IMG/VR virus record: IMGVR_UViG_2671180743_000009
DNA: 8,376 nt
From: a virus
Lineage: Duplodnaviria; Heunggongvirae; Uroviricota; Caudoviricetes
Reading direction: 5' to 3' (one strand)
The notes below the pieces were generated by a model that saw only the letters and a list, made by a program, of their open reading frames with translations, had not been told where the DNA came from and did not search any database. The number at the start of each line of letters is the position of its first letter. Position 1 is the stretch's first letter. The translations under genes and the position numbers were made by a program. This document shows positions 1,985 through 7,972 of this stretch, piece by piece.

Positions 1985-2583
1985 TACGCAAACTCCAGCA
2001 GCTGCGCGGCCACATTTTCGACTTGTTCCGGAGAGGAAAATTTACGGAACAGAATCCAGTTCCACAGCACATTCAGAACAGATTTATAAACCTGCTGAAA
2101 CTCGGTTTCGTCCATATTCGCAAACGCGATAGATTTCGCCCGACACCCACGGCTACCGTCCGGATAAAAATGCTCGGTGTAAAATCCGGCCTGAATGGCT
2201 ACCCACTCGCGGAAAGCCTCAAACGACTTTAGCAATGCCGTATCACTGGTTCTGCGTGTCGCAACTGTATTCAGATATTGCTCTGCGGCTTCGCTCAGAG
2301 CTGGCGTATGTTCCCGGCCTACTGATTCACACAGGTAATCAACGAAACCGGACACCAGTTTTCGTTCGCGAGGCGTGATCGCCCCACCGACCGGAGTCCA
2401 GTAATCGAAACCCAGTTGCAGGAGTTTGAAAAAACGCTTGTGGAATGCGTAGTTACACACACGCTTAAAGTCTGCGTGTATCCACTCACCTATTTTGATT
2501 TGATGCAGAAAATCGCAACTCTCCGGCGTCGCCGGGAGAAGTAATCCGGAAGAGGTTTGTTTGACCAGTTGTATATGTGCCAT
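1984..2583 (-). CDS. DUF1367-like phage protein, 199 aa
   Basis: Part of the 1984..2625 ORF, starting at the ATG at 2581-2583 (protein MAHIQLVKQTSSGLLLPATPE...), which has a GGAGAAAG Shine-Dalgarno 7 nt upstream. Its stop overlaps the next start by one base. The family is recognised from memory of prophage proteins in this position. Confidence 0.6.
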   Translation of the reverse strand: MAHIQLVKQTSSGLLLPATPESCDFLHQIKIGEWIHADFKRVCNYAFHKRFFKLLQLGFDYWTPVGGAITPRERKLVSGFVDYLCESVGREHTPALSEAAEQYLNTVATRRTSDTALLKSFEAFREWVAIQAGFYTEHFYPDGSRGCRAKSIAFANMDETEFQQVYKSVLNVLWNWILFRKFSSPEQVENVAAQLLEFA

Positions 2584-2621
2584 CGGCTTTCTCCGGTGGC
2601 ACGGTGTTACACAGCAGGAGT

Positions 2622-2909
2622 TCAATCCTGCTCAAGATTGTAGATGAGTTTATTCTTCAGCAAAAGCAGAAAACCAGCCTTAAAACCAATCTCTTTCAAA
2701 ACCCGTAATGATGTGACAAATTCGTCCTCACGCAAAATAAAACCGTCCGTCAGAAGTCCATTACAAAAATAAAATAACACAGCACCGCTCTTCCTTTGTT
2801 GAGATTGCAAACATCTAATGCGGCAATGGCTGACAATCGCTCCATTCTCAACGCGCACAGCATAGAGGCCATTTTCACTAAAAATTTCACGCAATTCTTC
2901 GATTTTCAT
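2622..2909 (-). CDS. Hypothetical protein, 95 aa, AT-rich gene of unknown function
   Basis: ORF 2622..2909 with a GGAAGGA Shine-Dalgarno 8 nt upstream of the ATG. First gene after a promoter-like element. I recognise no homolog. Confidence 0.45.
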   Translation of the reverse strand: MKIEELREIFSENGLYAVRVENGAIVSHCRIRCLQSQQRKSGAVLFYFCNGLLTDGFILREDEFVTSLRVLKEIGFKAGFLLLLKNKLIYNLEQD

Positions 2910-2990
2910 CTTCAGAATCCTTCCAGATAAATAGCTCTCCCCTGTTCGGGGTCCATCCCTCTTCTCCCTGCGCGCTACTTAAGTGAGTCG

Positions 2991-3018
2991 ATTCTATCTG
3001 CGAAGGTGCGCGAATCAA
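2991..3018 (-). promoter_or_regulatory. Candidate sigma-70 promoter for the 95-aa/DUF1367/YbcO/Q operon: -35 TTGATT, 16-bp spacer, -10 TAGAAT
   Basis: Minus strand has TTGATT (plus 3013-3018), a 16-bp spacer, then TAGAAT (plus 2991-2996). It lies just downstream of the hok terminator and about 80 nt upstream of the ATG at 2909. Confidence 0.35.
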
Positions 3019-3029
3019 ATTCACCGGAA

Positions 3030-3081
3030 ATAAACAACAAAAAACCCGCCGAAACGCTGAGAGATCACAGCGATGGGCGGG
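3030..3081 (-). terminator. Intrinsic terminator downstream of hok
   Basis: Minus strand has CCCGCC ... GGCGGG (plus 3045-3050 pairing with 3076-3081, with an inner CGCTG/CAGCG sub-stem) followed by TTTTTTGTTGTTTATTT. Confidence 0.5.
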
Positions 3082-3158
3082 TTAAGTGCGGGTGCGTTGA
3101 GGATGCCTGACACATCAGAGGTGGGCGGGGATGGGATCAGCTCCCCGCCCGGTCACTC

Positions 3159-3314
3159 TTACTTCCTGGATTCGTAGTCTACGAAGACAGCGACCTCCGT
3201 CTGGCCGGTTCGGATTCGTACCTCACAGAGGTCTTTCCTCGTTACCAGTGCCGTCACTATGACGGTTAAACAGATGACGATCAGGGCGATTAACATCGCC
3301 TTTTGCTGCTTCAT
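3159..3314 (-). CDS. hok: Hok/Gef-family type I toxin, 51 aa (closest recalled relative HokD/RelF)
   Basis: Translation MKQQKAMLIALIVICLTVIVTALVTRKDLCEVRIRTGQTEVAVFVDYESRK has the Hok hallmarks: a single transmembrane helix, the RKDLCEV motif and a TGQTEVAVF C-terminus. AAGGAG Shine-Dalgarno 9 nt upstream of the internal ATG. Confidence 0.8.
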   Translation of the reverse strand: MKQQKAMLIALIVICLTVIVTALVTRKDLCEVRIRTGQTEVAVFVDYESRK

Positions 3315-3371
3315 AGCCTGCTTCTCCTTGCCTTTCGGCATGTAAGAGGCTAACCTACATGTGCAAAGCAT
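3159..3371 (-). CDS. mok: mok-like in-frame upstream extension of hok, 70 aa
   Basis: ORF 3159..3371 begins MLCTCRLASYMPKGKEKQAMKQQKAM, the same pattern as E. coli MokC as I recall it (an N-terminally extended Hok in the same frame). Confidence 0.5.
   Translation of the reverse strand: MLCTCRLASYMPKGKEKQAMKQQKAMLIALIVICLTVIVTALVTRKDLCEVRIRTGQTEVAVFVDYESRK
3328..3356 (+). promoter_or_regulatory. Candidate Sok antisense-RNA promoter: -35 TTGCCT, 17-bp spacer, -10 TAACCT
   Basis: Plus strand has TTGCCT (3328-3333), a 17-bp spacer and TAACCT (3351-3356), inside the mok/hok 5' coding region on the opposite strand. The predicted start near 3363 would give an RNA complementary to the mok start and Shine-Dalgarno region, as in hok/sok systems. 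No clean terminator found. Confidence 0.3.
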
Positions 3372-3490
3372 GAAATTGGCCTCAGATTAATGTTAAGCGT
3401 CTTGCCGGACGCGTAATGTTAACTGGGGCTTTTCTCTATCTGCCTTTTGGTGTTCATGCCTGAAGCAGATAGCCTCAAGCACCCGCAGTC

Positions 3491-3520
3491 ATTCTACTTA
3501 CCTCGCCAATATGAAATCAA
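3491..3520 (-). promoter_or_regulatory. Candidate hok mRNA promoter: -35 TTGATT, 18-bp spacer, -10 TAGAAT
   Basis: Minus strand has TTGATT (plus 3515-3520), an 18-bp spacer and TAGAAT (plus 3491-3496). This gives a leader of roughly 110 nt before mok and a transcript of about 450 nt to the terminator at 3030-3081. Confidence 0.35.
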
Positions 3521-3541
3521 TCAGAAAGGTGCCCCATAAAA

Positions 3542-4228
3542 TCACTCCTTCTCTTCTTTACCGTAGTGGAGTTGACCAATTTTGATAAGAGGGCGTCCCT
3601 GAGATTTGCGGTGTAGATTGGTATCGCGCAGAGAATACACACAGCCACAATATTCCTGCTGATAGAATTTTTCGCGCTTGCTGATTTCAATCATACGGGA
3701 CGAGCCGCCCTGCTTGCGCCAGTTATAATCCCAGTACACCATGCCCGGATAATGCGCGACGGCTCGCCGCCCACAGTCGTTAACCTGCTGCATATTTTTC
3801 CAGCGTGAAATGCCCAGTGAACTGCTGATCACACTGAAACCATTTTCAGCGGCGTACAGCGCTGTCCGCTCAAAACGCATGTCAAAACACATGGTGCAAC
3901 GGATCCCTCGTTCGGGCTCCCATTCCATTCCTTTGGCTCGTTCAAACCAGTTGTCTGTGTCGTAATCAGCATCAATAAACGGCACGCCGTGTTGTTCAGC
4001 AAAGCGAATATTCTCATCCTTACGAATTAAATACTCTTTCTGAGGATGAATGTTCGGGTTGTAGAAAAAGATGGTGTAGTCGATTCCCGAGGCCTGAAGC
4101 GCCTCCATCACCTCACCGGAACATGGAGCACAGCAAGAGTGCAGTAGTAGTTTGTTTGCCCCGTTTGGGAGCTCCAATTTGGGCCGTTTGAAATCAGCAA
4201 CTGTCATAAATATGTTTATTGGGGTCAT
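3542..4228 (-). CDS. queH: QueH-like epoxyqueuosine reductase (DUF208 family), 228 aa
   Basis: ORF 3542..4228 carries the ordered motif set I associate with DUF208/QueH: [11 protein letters not shown] near the N-terminus, then [29 protein letters not shown] and YCGCVYS near the C-terminus. Start codon is ambiguous (ATG at 4228 or 4207; neither has a clear Shine-Dalgarno). Confidence 0.7.
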
Positions 4229-5226: not shown

Positions 5227-5973
5227 CTACTTAACAACCCTCGAATGGCTAACATTCGGACGCCAGCTCTCCCAGTTAAAATTCACCCAGCGCCCGCCGT
5301 TCATGACCATGCGATCCATCACCCGCTCGCCGAGCAATGTTTTCATCACCTCATAGTTCAGGTTTGTCAGCATCCCCACGCTGCGCATCGACGCTGTCCG
5401 GCGATCAACAATCTGGTGCAGCACCACCTGCTCGTTTTTCGTCTCGCGCTGAATGCCAATTTCATCAAGAACCAGCAGATCCACTTCGCACAGCTCCCGC
5501 AAAAATTTTTCGCCTGACTGCCCGTCGTCATAGCTGGCGTGCAGGGCGCTCATAACATCAGCCACGGTAACCACAATCACTGTCTGACCGTCTTTCAGCA
5601 GGCGATTCCCGATAGCTGCCGCTAAGTGATTCTTCCCGGTACCAGGTTTTCCGCTGAACGCAAAATTTGTACACCCGGTCATCAGTTCATCGGCGATGGA
5701 TTTCGCCTGGCTTAACGCGTATCGCTGGCCGTCGTTCTGCACCTGGTAATTCGCAAACGAGCATTTACGGTGCAACGGCTGGATGCCTGAGCGATTCAGA
5801 ATTTTTTCCACCCGCAACTGGCGATTCAGGCGGTTGATCTCCTCGCTACGTTTCTGGCCTTCAGCAAGTTGCCACTCGCGCCACTCCGCTACCGTTCTGA
5901 ATGGGGCGGTTACATGTGGCGGGGTCAGTCGGCGGATGCGTTCCAGAACGCCGCCTGTCGCAATATTTTTCAT
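5227..5973 (-). CDS. DnaC-like helicase loader (phage replication protein, YdaV-like), 248 aa
   Basis: ORF 5227..5973. Walker A FSGKPGTGKNHLAAAIGN, Walker B DLLVLDEIG and LLGERVMDRM align along the whole length with E. coli DnaC as I recall it. Confidence 0.9.
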   Translation of the reverse strand: MKNIATGGVLERIRRLTPPHVTAPFRTVAEWREWQLAEGQKRSEEINRLNRQLRVEKILNRSGIQPLHRKCSFANYQVQNDGQRYALSQAKSIADELMTGCTNFAFSGKPGTGKNHLAAAIGNRLLKDGQTVIVVTVADVMSALHASYDDGQSGEKFLRELCEVDLLVLDEIGIQRETKNEQVVLHQIVDRRTASMRSVGMLTNLNYEVMKTLLGERVMDRMVMNGGRWVNFNWESWRPNVSHSRVVK

Positions 5974-7564: not shown

Positions 7565-7972
7565 ATGAAAAACGAAACCTTCGGTGCTCGCCTCTTACAT
7601 AGGCGTAAAAAATTAAAACTGTCTCAGGCCGCATTAGGTAAGCTGGTCAAAGTGGCTCACGTAACAATTTCTCAATGGGAAAGAGATGAAACACAGCCGG
7701 CGGGGAAAAGATTATTCGCACTGAGCCAAGCGCTTCAGTGCTCACCGACTTGGCTTCTTTTTGGGGATGAAGATAAACAACCAGGCGAACCGATCCCGGA
7801 TAATCAGCCAGCCATTCTGACAGAAGATCAAAAAGAGTTACTTCAACTGTTCGACGCACTGCCTGAGTCAGAGCAAAAGGCCCTGTTGTCAGAGATGCGT
7901 GCTCGAGTTGAAAATTTCAACAAACTTTTTGAAGAACTACTCAAAGCTCGCAAAAGAAGCGCAAACAAATAA
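7565..7972 (+). CDS. dicA: DicA-like prophage repressor (XRE-family helix-turn-helix), 135 aa
   Basis: ORF 7565..7972. The helix-turn-helix region LSQAALGKLVKVAHVTISQWERDETQPAGKRLFALSQALQCSPTWLLFGDEDKQP and the C-terminal ALPESEQ...MRARVENFNKLFEELLKAR match Qin DicA from memory, including its 135-aa length. Confidence 0.85.
   Translation: MKNETFGARLLHRRKKLKLSQAALGKLVKVAHVTISQWERDETQPAGKRLFALSQALQCSPTWLLFGDEDKQPGEPIPDNQPAILTEDQKELLQLFDALPESEQKALLSEMRARVENFNKLFEELLKARKRSANK

What the first reader, a model, noticed from the sequence alone, without database searches (positions are those of the whole stretch)
3030..3521. Complete-looking hok/mok type I toxin locus with a candidate Sok promoter, directly downstream of queH
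The toxin and its in-frame mok extension are flanked by a TTGATT/TAGAAT promoter, a roughly 110-nt leader, a 9-bp GC hairpin just after the stop (GGGCGGGGA...TCCCCGCCC, 3122-3149) and an intrinsic terminator. That is the architecture of self-regulated hok mRNAs. A plus-strand promoter (TTGCCT-17-TAACCT, 3328-3356) is placed to make an antisense RNA across the mok start. In K-12 Qin, hokD is instead driven by relBE, so here the toxin appears to have regained or kept independent antisense control, with queH replacing relBE. It could act as a stability or abortive-infection module.
Basis: partly seen in the sequence, partly recalled or inferred. Interest (0 to 1): 0.5.

Follow-up and report, generated by a model that had tools for sequence, protein, structure and literature searches.

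The report
Intact prophage hok/mok/sok toxin-antitoxin cassette
This is a complete and apparently intact copy of the well-known hok/sok RNA-controlled toxin-antitoxin cassette, nearly identical to the characterised hokW-sokW of Shiga-toxin phage 933W/Sp5, sitting in a common slot of a lambdoid prophage, so it is real but ordinary.

Summary
On the minus strand, 3484 to about 3040 encodes a full hok mRNA. It has a 51-aa Hok/Gef toxin (Pfam 79.9 bits) and an in-frame 70-aa mok. The leader matches Rfam RF01794 at 117 bits (threshold 59). The 5' end (tac) pairs with a 3' box (fbi), the ucb and dcb boxes are exact complements, and there is a GC hairpin and a terminator. The plus-strand TTGCCT-17-TAACCT promoter and the RNA predicted from 3363 align base-for-base with the annotated SokW RNA of phage 933W (64/71 nt). 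The toxin is 50/51 identical to HokW, which was shown experimentally to be a Sok-controlled toxin that aids lysis on prophage induction. The predicted fold is conserved with compensatory changes in 23 relatives from Escherichia, Kluyvera, Citrobacter, Pantoea and Photorhabdus. K-12 hokD is a 5'-truncated derivative whose breakpoint lies in the sok -35 hexamer. The window therefore kept antisense control rather than regaining it. The queH-hok junction occurs in 852 of 5426 complete E. coli genomes. Verdict: correct reading, already known, low novelty. The physiological role here (lysis assist, prophage retention or exclusion) is inferred, not tested.

The parts
3491..3520 (-). hok mRNA promoter: -35 TTGATT (3520-3515), 18-nt spacer, -10 TAGAAT (3496-3491)
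   Evidence: Found by the consensus scan. The -10 hexamer and the downstream start are conserved in 933W and HannyBb, but the -35 hexamer is not positionally conserved. The -35 assignment is therefore tentative.
3040..3484 (-). Full-length hok mRNA, about 445 nt. The 5' end is taken from Rfam model position 1 and the 3' end is inferred from the terminator.
   Evidence: MFE is -191.5 kcal/mol with z = -8.4. The fold is conserved in 23 relatives: 84.8% of cells are paired against about 40% when partners are slid, and 36 pairs show double changes against 12-16 in the slid controls.
3309..3484 (-). hok leader matching Rfam RF01794. The family is named 'sok' but is modelled on the hok-mRNA strand.
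   Evidence: 117 bits against a gathering score of 59, E 7.2e-27, model positions 1-157 of 157.
3473..3484 (-). tac element, the mRNA 5' end GGGUGCUUGAGG
   Evidence: Pairs with fbi in the MFE. The duplex is kept in 30 of 31 relatives, with U:A to C:G and G:C to A:U double changes.
3380..3383 (-). Shine-Dalgarno sequence of mok (GAGG), 8 nt before the mok AUG
   Evidence: These columns are invariant in the 23-sequence alignment. The site is covered by the antisense Sok RNA.
3159..3371 (-). mok reading frame, 70 aa: a 19-codon in-frame extension of hok
   Evidence: ORF list. It matches the annotated mokW of 933W. The in-frame extension is conserved in most relatives.
3342..3348 (-). ucb box CUCUUAC
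   Evidence: Pairs with dcb in the MFE and in the RNAalifold consensus. Invariant in 23 relatives.
3328..3356 (+). sok promoter: -35 TTGCCT (3328-3333), 17-nt spacer, -10 TAACCT (3351-3356)
   Evidence: Read from the sequence. It lies at the same position as the sokW promoter of 933W/Sp5. The -10 hexamer was mutated in Takada 2021 with loss of antitoxin activity. The -35 complement GGCAA is invariant in relatives.
3363..3433 (+). Sok antisense RNA, about 71 nt: 5' single-stranded tail, long hairpin, UUUU
   Evidence: Maps base-for-base onto the annotated sokW misc_RNA of 933W, 64/71 identical. The hairpin fold has z = -5.06. The hairpin stem shows compensatory changes.
3159..3314 (-). hok toxin CDS, 51 aa
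   Evidence: Pfam HOK_GEF 79.9 bits. It is 50/51 aa identical to HokW and 46/51 to K-12 HokD.
3156..3162 (-). dcb box GUAAGAG, overlapping the hok stop codon
   Evidence: Exact complement of ucb. Invariant in 23 relatives.
3123..3150 (-). 9-bp GC hairpin just after the hok stop codon
   Evidence: Present in the MFE and conserved among relatives as helix 17.
3090..3102 (-). fbi element CCUCAACGCACCC, which pairs with tac
   Evidence: MFE pairs nt 1-12 with nt 383-395. Covariation supports it. It is retained in K-12 hokD.
3039..3083 (-). Intrinsic terminator of hok mRNA: stem CCCGCC/GGCGGG, U6 tract, and a 23-nt insertion in the loop that is specific to this allele
   Evidence: Fold energy -22.8 kcal/mol, z = -5.05. 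In most relatives the loop is a plain UUCG.
3542..4228 (-). queH, the upstream neighbour (context, not part of the cassette)
   Evidence: Pfam QueH 220.6 bits. The queH-hok junction is found in 852 of 5426 complete E. coli genomes.

Best explanation
This is an intact hok/mok/sok type I toxin-antitoxin cassette of the hokW subtype. It sits in the nin region of a Rac/Qin-like lambdoid prophage.

Shown here from sequence:
- A weak promoter (-10 at 3496-3491) would start a roughly 445-nt hok mRNA at about 3484.
- The 5' end (tac) pairs with the 3' fbi box.
- The ucb box pairs with dcb at the stop codon.
- The hok start region pairs with downstream coding sequence.
- Together these give a closed fold.
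- A convergent promoter (3328-3356, plus strand) would make a roughly 71-nt Sok RNA (3363-3433). Sok is fully complementary to the mok Shine-Dalgarno sequence and AUG.

Inferred from established work on plasmid R1 hok/sok (Gerdes laboratory) and from the hokW-sokW experiments:
- The full-length mRNA is translationally inert and stable.
- Slow 3' trimming removes fbi and lets the 5' end refold.
- This exposes mok for translation, to which hok translation is coupled, and also exposes it to Sok binding.
- While the unstable Sok RNA is made, it blocks mok and the duplex is cleaved.
- When Sok synthesis stops, the stored mRNA is translated and Hok depolarises the inner membrane.

Most likely role in this setting, by analogy with the 50/51-identical HokW: Hok is produced on prophage induction and assists lysis and phage release. 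Post-segregational retention of the prophage and exclusion of other phages are alternative or additional roles.
For: - Family matches: Pfam HOK_GEF 79.9 bits; Rfam hok-leader model 117 bits against a threshold of 59.
- Folding: the MFE of the full-length RNA pairs nt 1-12 with nt 383-395, z = -8.4. Removing fbi in silico releases the 5' end into a local hairpin.
- tac-fbi duplex: present in 30 of 31 non-redundant relatives, with double changes at tac position 4 (UA 17, CG 11) and position 12 (GC 20, AU 11). In 23 of the 30 loci with valid coordinates, none of about 180 random windows from the same locus paired as well.
- Whole fold across 23 relatives: 84.8% of cells paired against 37-44% when partners are slid. 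36 pairs have double changes against 12-16 in slid controls. 0 of 500 shuffles reach the observed values.
- Conserved elements: ucb/dcb 7-mers, the mok Shine-Dalgarno sequence and the sok -35 hexamer are invariant.
- Sok: the Sok region equals the annotated sokW of 933W, 64/71 nt. mok equals mokW. Hok is 50/51 identical to HokW.
- Experiments on hokW-sokW (PMC8621323): the toxin is toxic; antitoxin activity depends on the same -10 hexamer; sokW and hokW RNAs were seen on northern blots; HokW appears after mitomycin C in a RecA-dependent way; the deletion halves phage release.
- Orientation: the cassette is co-oriented with the early operon in every phage context inspected.
Against: - No expression or toxicity data exist for this allele.
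- The sok promoter matches only 7 of 12 consensus positions and was not reported by the scanner.
- The -35 hexamer of the hok promoter is not conserved in 933W or HannyBb.
- The MFE of the 3'-truncated RNA did not reproduce a tac-ucb stem; it showed only a local 5' hairpin.
- Chromosomal hok loci tested in the past (hokA, hokB, hokC) did not mediate post-segregational killing, according to the review text in preprint 10.1101/2025.08.07.668861.
- This allele differs from hokW in the Sok 5' tail (7 of the first 17 nt), in Hok residue 50 (R instead of E), and by a 23-nt insertion in the terminator loop.
- Whether the host prophage is inducible is unknown.
Confidence: 0.82

Rival explanations
1. 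The cassette is structurally intact but physiologically silent. It persists only because it rides on the prophage module. Hok is never produced at effective levels, and the locus has no role in lysis, retention or exclusion.
For: Chromosomal hokA, hokB and hokC loci reportedly failed to mediate post-segregational killing or rifampicin activation (preprint 10.1101/2025.08.07.668861). Most K-12 hok loci are described as inactivated (PMC12214031). Decayed copies exist: L007 has a degraded tac, and K-12 hokD lacks the leader. Both promoters are weak by consensus.
Against: Every regulatory element is intact here. The fold is maintained by compensatory substitutions across genera, which implies purifying selection on the regulation. 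The near-identical hokW-sokW has measurable phenotypes.
Confidence: 0.12
2. hok is expressed mainly as the distal part of the early-right (pR, through O/P-like genes and queH) read-through transcript, as K-12 hokD is expressed from relBE. The plus-strand 'Sok promoter' is then non-functional in this allele.
For: There is no terminator in the 21 nt between the queH stop codon and the hok -35 hexamer. hok has the same orientation as all early genes. The sok -10 hexamer TAACCT matches only 3 of 6 consensus positions.
Against: The promoter hexamers are identical to those of sokW, whose -10 mutation abolishes antitoxin activity. The Sok hairpin and U-tract are intact. The leader with tac at a defined 5' end is conserved, which read-through expression alone would not require.
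Confidence: 0.05

Closest known systems
hokW-mokW-sokW of Stx2 phage 933W / Sakai prophage Sp5 (VT2-Sakai)
   Same: Hok is 50/51 aa identical. mok uses the same in-frame 19-codon extension. The Sok region is 64/71 nt identical with the same promoter hexamers and terminator hairpin. tac, ucb, dcb, the GC hairpin and fbi are the same. It lies in a lambdoid prophage and is co-oriented with an early operon.
   Different: The position in the phage differs: here it is in the nin region between queH and a rem-like gene, while in 933W it lies near attR beside a ygiW-like gene. The Sok 5' tail differs at 7 of the first 17 nt. Hok has R50 instead of E50. The region upstream of the -10 of the hok promoter differs. 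This allele has a 23-nt insertion in the terminator loop, and 933W diverges after fbi.
hok/sok (parB) of plasmid R1 and the Rfam RF01794 / Pfam PF01848 family
   Same: The overall architecture and regulatory logic are the same: tac-fbi end pairing, ucb-dcb boxes, a mok frame, and antisense Sok over the mok start. The leader matches the family model over its full length.
   Different: The toxin is only distantly similar; HokW is 44% identical to R1 Hok according to PMC8621323. The Sok hairpin carries a 16-nt insertion relative to the Rfam consensus. It is prophage-borne, not plasmid-borne. Post-segregational killing has not been shown for this subtype.
hokD (relF) of the relBEF operon, Qin prophage, E. 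coli K-12
   Same: The toxin is 46/51 aa identical. The hok Shine-Dalgarno sequence, dcb, GC hairpin, fbi and terminator core are the same. The downstream neighbour (rem) and the prophage slot are the same.
   Different: K-12 homology starts only about 14-17 nt upstream of the hok AUG, at window position 3328/3329, inside the sok -35 hexamer. K-12 therefore lacks tac, the Sok target, the mok start, ucb and the sok gene, and it follows relE instead of queH. The window is the complete form and K-12 is the truncated derivative.
Chromosomal hokC (gef)/mokC/sokC-type loci of Escherichia
   Same: They share the tac sequence GGGUGCUUGAGG, the in-frame mok, ucb/dcb and the fbi arrangement. Hok is about 78-80% identical.
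   Different: They have a shorter leader (about 150 nt against 170 nt) and lack the 16-20-nt extension of the Sok hairpin. They lie at fixed chromosomal sites rather than on prophages.

Membership tests
[quoted passage not shown] | Small (about 50 aa) Hok/Gef membrane toxin ORF | tested here: met
   Pfam HOK_GEF 79.9 bits against a cutoff of 22, profile positions 1-42 of 42. The NCBIfam Hok subfamily model scored 55 bits, below its 73-bit cutoff.
[quoted passage not shown] | Long structured 5' leader homologous to the hok mRNA leader | tested here: met
   RF01794 scored 117 bits against a gathering score of 59 with a full-length model match at 3484..3309 on the minus strand.
[quoted passage not shown] | mRNA 5'-3' end pairing (tac with fbi) | tested here: met
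   The MFE pairs nt 1-12 with nt 383-395. The duplex is kept in 30 of 31 relatives with compensatory changes at two positions. It also appears in the RNAalifold consensus.
[quoted passage not shown] | Upstream and downstream complementary boxes (ucb/dcb) | tested here: met
   CUCUUAC (3342-3348) and GUAAGAG (3156-3162) are paired in the MFE and in the consensus. They are invariant in 23 relatives, so there is no covariation to add.
[quoted passage not shown] | mok reading frame with its own Shine-Dalgarno sequence, overlapping hok | tested here: met
   AUG at 3371 preceded by GAGG at an 8-nt spacing. The extension is 19 codons and in frame. It is equivalent to the annotated mokW and is conserved in most relatives.
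[quoted passage not shown] | Cis-antisense Sok gene (promoter, 5' tail, terminator hairpin) overlapping the mok translation start | tested here: met
   This is met at the sequence level. Promoter 3328-3356 and RNA 3363-3433 are collinear with the annotated sokW, 64/71 nt identical. The hairpin has z = -5.06. Expression itself cannot be tested here.
[quoted passage not shown] | Alternative fold after 3' trimming (tac-ucb stem) that activates translation and Sok binding | tested here: inconclusive
   In silico removal of fbi frees the 5' end into a local hairpin (nt 3-13 with nt 19-29), but the MFE does not form tac-ucb. By eye, a 6-bp GAGGCU/AGCCUC segment plus a 4-bp segment is possible.
[quoted passage not shown] | Toxicity of Hok and neutralisation by Sok RNA | not testable with these tools
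   This has been shown only for the 50/51-identical HokW and SokW (PMC8621323).
hokD/relF as in K-12 (third gene of the relBEF operon) | Located directly downstream of relBE and lacking its own leader, mok and sok | tested here: not met
   The upstream neighbour is queH and the complete leader and sok are present. K-12 homology starts only at about 3328. The RefSeq name 'HokD' for this gene reflects protein similarity only.

The most novel reading that the evidence does not exclude
The cassette may be an induction-wired switch, not a free-standing addiction module. In every phage context inspected it is oriented sense to an antiterminated early operon: pR read-through here and in four other nin-region contexts, and pL across attP after excision in 933W. 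Early transcription would then run head-on into the convergent sok promoter and silence it by transcriptional interference. That would explain the unexplained rapid, RecA-dependent loss of sokW RNA reported for Sp5.

In parallel, the fast-diverging Sok 5' tail is the least conserved block of the leader. This may keep the two to nine co-resident hok/sok copies per genome from cross-neutralising one another.
Probability: 0.25. Interest if true: 0.45.

Novelty: already known. Interest (0 to 1): 0.15.

Why it matters
It matters mainly for annotation. RefSeq/PGAP labels this gene 'HokD' and annotates neither mok nor the Sok RNA. Hundreds of E. coli genomes therefore carry an apparently complete, probably functional type I toxin-antitoxin cassette that is recorded only as a small toxin gene.

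It also shows that K-12 hokD, the textbook copy, is the truncated derivative of a widespread intact prophage cassette. If the read-through interference idea were confirmed, it would give a mechanism for how prophage induction triggers Hok production, which the hokW-sokW study left open.

Tried and rejected
- The simple terminator scan found nothing in 2900-3650. The hok terminator has a 23-nt insertion in its loop and the Sok terminator has a long stem, so both were checked by folding instead.
- The promoter scan did not report the sok promoter because its -10 hexamer matches only 3 of 6 positions. The scan's hit count (2, against 0.8 expected) is not significant on its own.
- RNAduplex with long upstream and downstream inputs gave long spurious pairings. 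It was redone with the 13-nt tac against a 45-nt window, with random-window controls. L005 was unusable in that control because the contig ends inside the locus.
- MFE folding of 3'-truncated RNAs did not yield the tac-ucb stem expected from R1. This is recorded as inconclusive.
- NCBIfam Hok models scored below their cutoffs, and nothing was found for QueH or the rem-like ORF.
- A local fold around the Tyr47 UACG motif does not present it in a tRNA-like 7-nt loop. Editing of this allele is therefore not claimed.
- The plus-strand 43-aa ORF at 3131-3262, antisense to hok, was considered and rejected because there is no supporting evidence.
- The idea that the locus was 'regained' next to queH was considered and rejected. 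The complete form is the conserved one across genera and phages, and K-12 shows a clean breakpoint.

Full report
**What is there**

The window is the early region of a Rac/Qin-like lambdoid prophage, read right to left. In order it carries:
- a cI-like repressor (7565-7972, plus strand);
- then, all on the minus strand, a Cro-like gene, a YdaT-like gene, replication genes (a DnaC/IstB-like ATPase at 5227-5973) and a DUF977 gene;
- queH (3542-4228);
- the hok locus;
- a rem-like ORF (2622-2909), then DUF1367, a YbcO-like nuclease and a DUF1133/Q-like antiterminator;
- four tRNA genes.

The minus-strand ORF at 3159-3314 encodes a 51-aa Hok/Gef peptide (Pfam 79.9 bits, E 1e-22). Its in-frame upstream AUG at 3371 gives the 70-aa mok product.

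**Checking the observation**

- TTGATT-18-TAGAAT lies at 3520..3491 on the minus strand, 6 nt upstream of G 3484.
- Position 3484 is where the Rfam RF01794 model begins. That match runs 3484 to 3309 at 117 bits, against a gathering score of 59, E 7e-27, over the full model.
- RF01794 is called 'sok' but is modelled on the hok-mRNA strand. The hit therefore certifies the hok leader, not by itself a Sok transcript.
- The terminator is a CCCGCC/GGCGGG stem (3045-3081) followed by U6 (3039-3044), z = -5.05.
- TTGCCT (3328-3333), a 17-nt spacer and TAACCT (3351-3356) are on the plus strand as stated.
- queH ends at 3542, 21 nt from the hok -35 hexamer, with no terminator between them.

The minimum-free-energy fold of the 445-455-nt RNA pairs nt 1-12 (GGGUGCUUGAGG, the tac element, 3484-3473) with nt 383-395 (CCUCAACGCACCC, the fbi element, 3102-3090). 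It also pairs CUCUUAC (ucb, 3348-3342) with GUAAGAG (dcb, 3162-3156, overlapping the stop codon). The hok Shine-Dalgarno and AUG region pairs with downstream coding sequence. The fold has z = -8.4.

I fetched 47 related loci from representative genomes, plus phage copies.
- The 13-nt tac finds its fbi 58-70 nt after the stop codon in 30 of 31 non-redundant loci.
- There are double changes at tac position 4 (U:A 17, C:G 11) and position 12 (G:C 20, A:U 11).
- In 23 of the 30 loci with valid coordinates, none of about 180 random windows from the same locus paired as well.

The window's own MFE was then projected onto a 23-sequence alignment covering Escherichia, Kluyvera, Citrobacter, Pantoea, Photorhabdus and two phages.
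- 84.8% of cells are paired, against 37-44% when partners are slid by 1-3 columns.
- 36 pairs show changes on both sides, against 12-16 in the slid controls.
- No shuffle out of 500 reaches the observed values.
- RNAalifold independently recovers tac-fbi, ucb-dcb, the Sok-target hairpin and the hok-start helix.

The leader does not lack the conserved boxes, so the finding survives its own test.

**The antisense RNA**

Phage 933W carries annotated mokW, hokW and a sokW misc_RNA. In the alignment the window is collinear with it from the hok -10 hexamer through fbi.
- The sokW feature maps to window 3363-3433.
- The window is 64/71 identical to SokW. All seven differences fall in the first 17 nt.
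- Hok is 50/51 identical to HokW (E50R) and 46/51 identical to K-12 HokD.

Takada et al. 2021 (PMC8621323) reported the following for hokW-sokW:
- HokW is toxic.
- The locus with its own sok promoter is not toxic.
- A promoter-less mutant regains toxicity. Their primers change the -10 hexamer TAACCT, identical in the window at 3351-3356, to GAGCCG.
- sokW supplied in trans partly rescues growth.
- Both RNAs are seen on northern blots.
- After mitomycin C, sokW RNA vanishes and HokW appears in a RecA-dependent manner, about 1 h before endolysin.
- Deleting the locus halves phage release.

The consensus scanner does not report the sok promoter (7 of 12 matches). Its support is therefore homology plus that experiment, not consensus strength.

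**Relation to K-12 hokD**

K-12 hokD aligns with the window from about 14-17 nt upstream of the hok AUG, through the CDS, dcb, GC hairpin, fbi and terminator, and again in the rem promoter and 5'UTR region. Upstream of window position 3328/3329, inside the sok -35 hexamer, similarity ends and relE follows.

K-12 hokD is therefore a 5'-truncated derivative that still carries a now-purposeless fbi. Published statements agree that hokD lost canonical components through rearrangement (PMC12214031). The window 'kept' its control; it did not 'regain' it.

**How common it is**

- Sequence similar to 3020-3545 occurs in 4713 of 5426 complete E. coli genomes, and 3785 genomes cover at least 80% of it. 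The median is 2 places per genome and the maximum is 9.
- RefSeq annotates the gene as hokD next to QueH.
- A junction-specific query (3400-3700) finds the queH-hok junction in 852 genomes. The relE-hokD junction occurs in 1166 genomes.
- In phages, the cassette sits in the same nin-region slot upstream of rem, ydfU, rus and Q, but with different upstream cargo: queH here, paa/adfO in PPompW phages, unknown ORFs in HannyBb, Tritos and 640R1. In 933W it lies near attR.
- Hok enrichment in prophages has been described (preprint 10.1101/2025.08.07.668861).

**Mechanism and role**

The sequence-level anatomy is shown: a closed full-length fold, and Sok complementary to the mok Shine-Dalgarno sequence and AUG. 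The dynamic steps are inferred from established R1 hok/sok biology and from the hokW-sokW experiments. These steps are slow 3' trimming, refolding, mok-coupled hok translation, RNase III cleavage of the Sok-mRNA duplex, Sok instability and membrane depolarisation by Hok.

In silico removal of fbi does free the 5' end, but it forms a local hairpin rather than the expected tac-ucb stem. That step is therefore inconclusive here.

For the physiological role I favour induction-linked assistance of lysis, as shown for HokW. Prophage retention or exclusion of other phages remain alternatives. A silent passenger remains possible, at about 0.12.

**A less ordinary reading that is not excluded**

In every context examined the cassette is sense to an antiterminated early operon. 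Here and in four other phages that is pR read-through. In 933W it would be pL read-through across attP, possible only after excision. Such transcription would collide with the convergent sok promoter. That could explain the unexplained rapid loss of sokW RNA on induction. This is inference only.

**Verdict**

The feature is a known, annotated and experimentally characterised kind of cassette in a common genomic arrangement. Novelty is low: already known.

Noticed in passing
window 3363-3379 (Sok 5' tail; hok mRNA nt 106-122): This is the least conserved block of the leader among hokW/hokD-like loci. Mean pairwise column identity is 0.63, against 0.92-1.0 for the flanking Sok hairpin, the ucb/sok-promoter block and the hok start. 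All 7 differences from SokW fall here. With 2-9 copies per genome, this could reflect diversification of antisense specificity.
   Followed up: partly
window 3171-3177 (minus strand CUACGAA; Tyr47 codon UAC at 3176-3174): The motif UACGAA is invariant, preceded by C or U, in all 23 aligned relatives. It is homologous to the Tyr codon of K-12 hokC/D/E mRNAs that TadA edits A-to-I to give Cys; hokD is edited at 6% (PMC12214031). A local fold does not place it in a tRNA-like loop in this allele.
   Followed up: partly
window 2991-3018 (minus strand) and the downstream 5'UTR to 2910: A second TTGATT-16-TAGAAT promoter-like site lies immediately after the hok terminator and ahead of the rem-like ORF at 2622-2909. 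Its -10 hexamer and the roughly 80-nt untranslated region are conserved with K-12 Qin rem. No Rfam family matched this region.
   Followed up: no
window 3052-3074: A 23-nt insertion in the loop of the hok terminator forms its own small CGCUG/CAGCG hairpin. Most relatives have a plain UUCG tetraloop. In complete E. coli genomes only FDAARGOS_943/944 matched this part.
   Followed up: partly
window 3542-4228 (queH) and 643-953 (four tRNA genes): The prophage carries a lone epoxyqueuosine reductase QueH (Pfam 220.6 bits). It also carries tRNA-Gly(UCC), Thr(UGU), Arg(UCU) and a CAU-anticodon tRNA downstream of Q. From my own knowledge, untested here, none of these tRNAs is a queuosine substrate, so the benefit of a phage-borne queH is unexplained.
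   Followed up: no
L050 (933W) 2573-2847 compared with the window; L051, L053, L054, L055: The same cassette occupies different modules: near attR beside a ygiW-like gene in 933W, and in the nin region in five other contexts. The slot just upstream of it holds varied cargo: queH, relBE, paa/adfO or unknown ORFs. It is always co-oriented with the neighbouring early genes.
   Followed up: partly
L007 (E. coli ECMA0423, CP178302.1 1945810-1950962): This is a HokD-type copy whose leader is present but whose tac is degraded (GCAUGUGGCUAUGUGCC in place of GGGUGCUUGAGGCUAUCUGCC). It is an intermediate state of decay between the intact cassette and K-12 hokD.
   Followed up: no
window about 960-1140 compared with L001 1319-2016: The window is base-identical to FDAARGOS_943 over 2536-3869. 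That strain has an IS1A insertion between the tRNA cluster and the Q-like gene which the window lacks. The window therefore comes from a related but different genome.
   Followed up: no
RefSeq annotation of the identical locus (L001 4140-4295): PGAP annotates only 'hokD'. It records no mok CDS and no Sok RNA feature, although the 933W record has both.
   Followed up: yes
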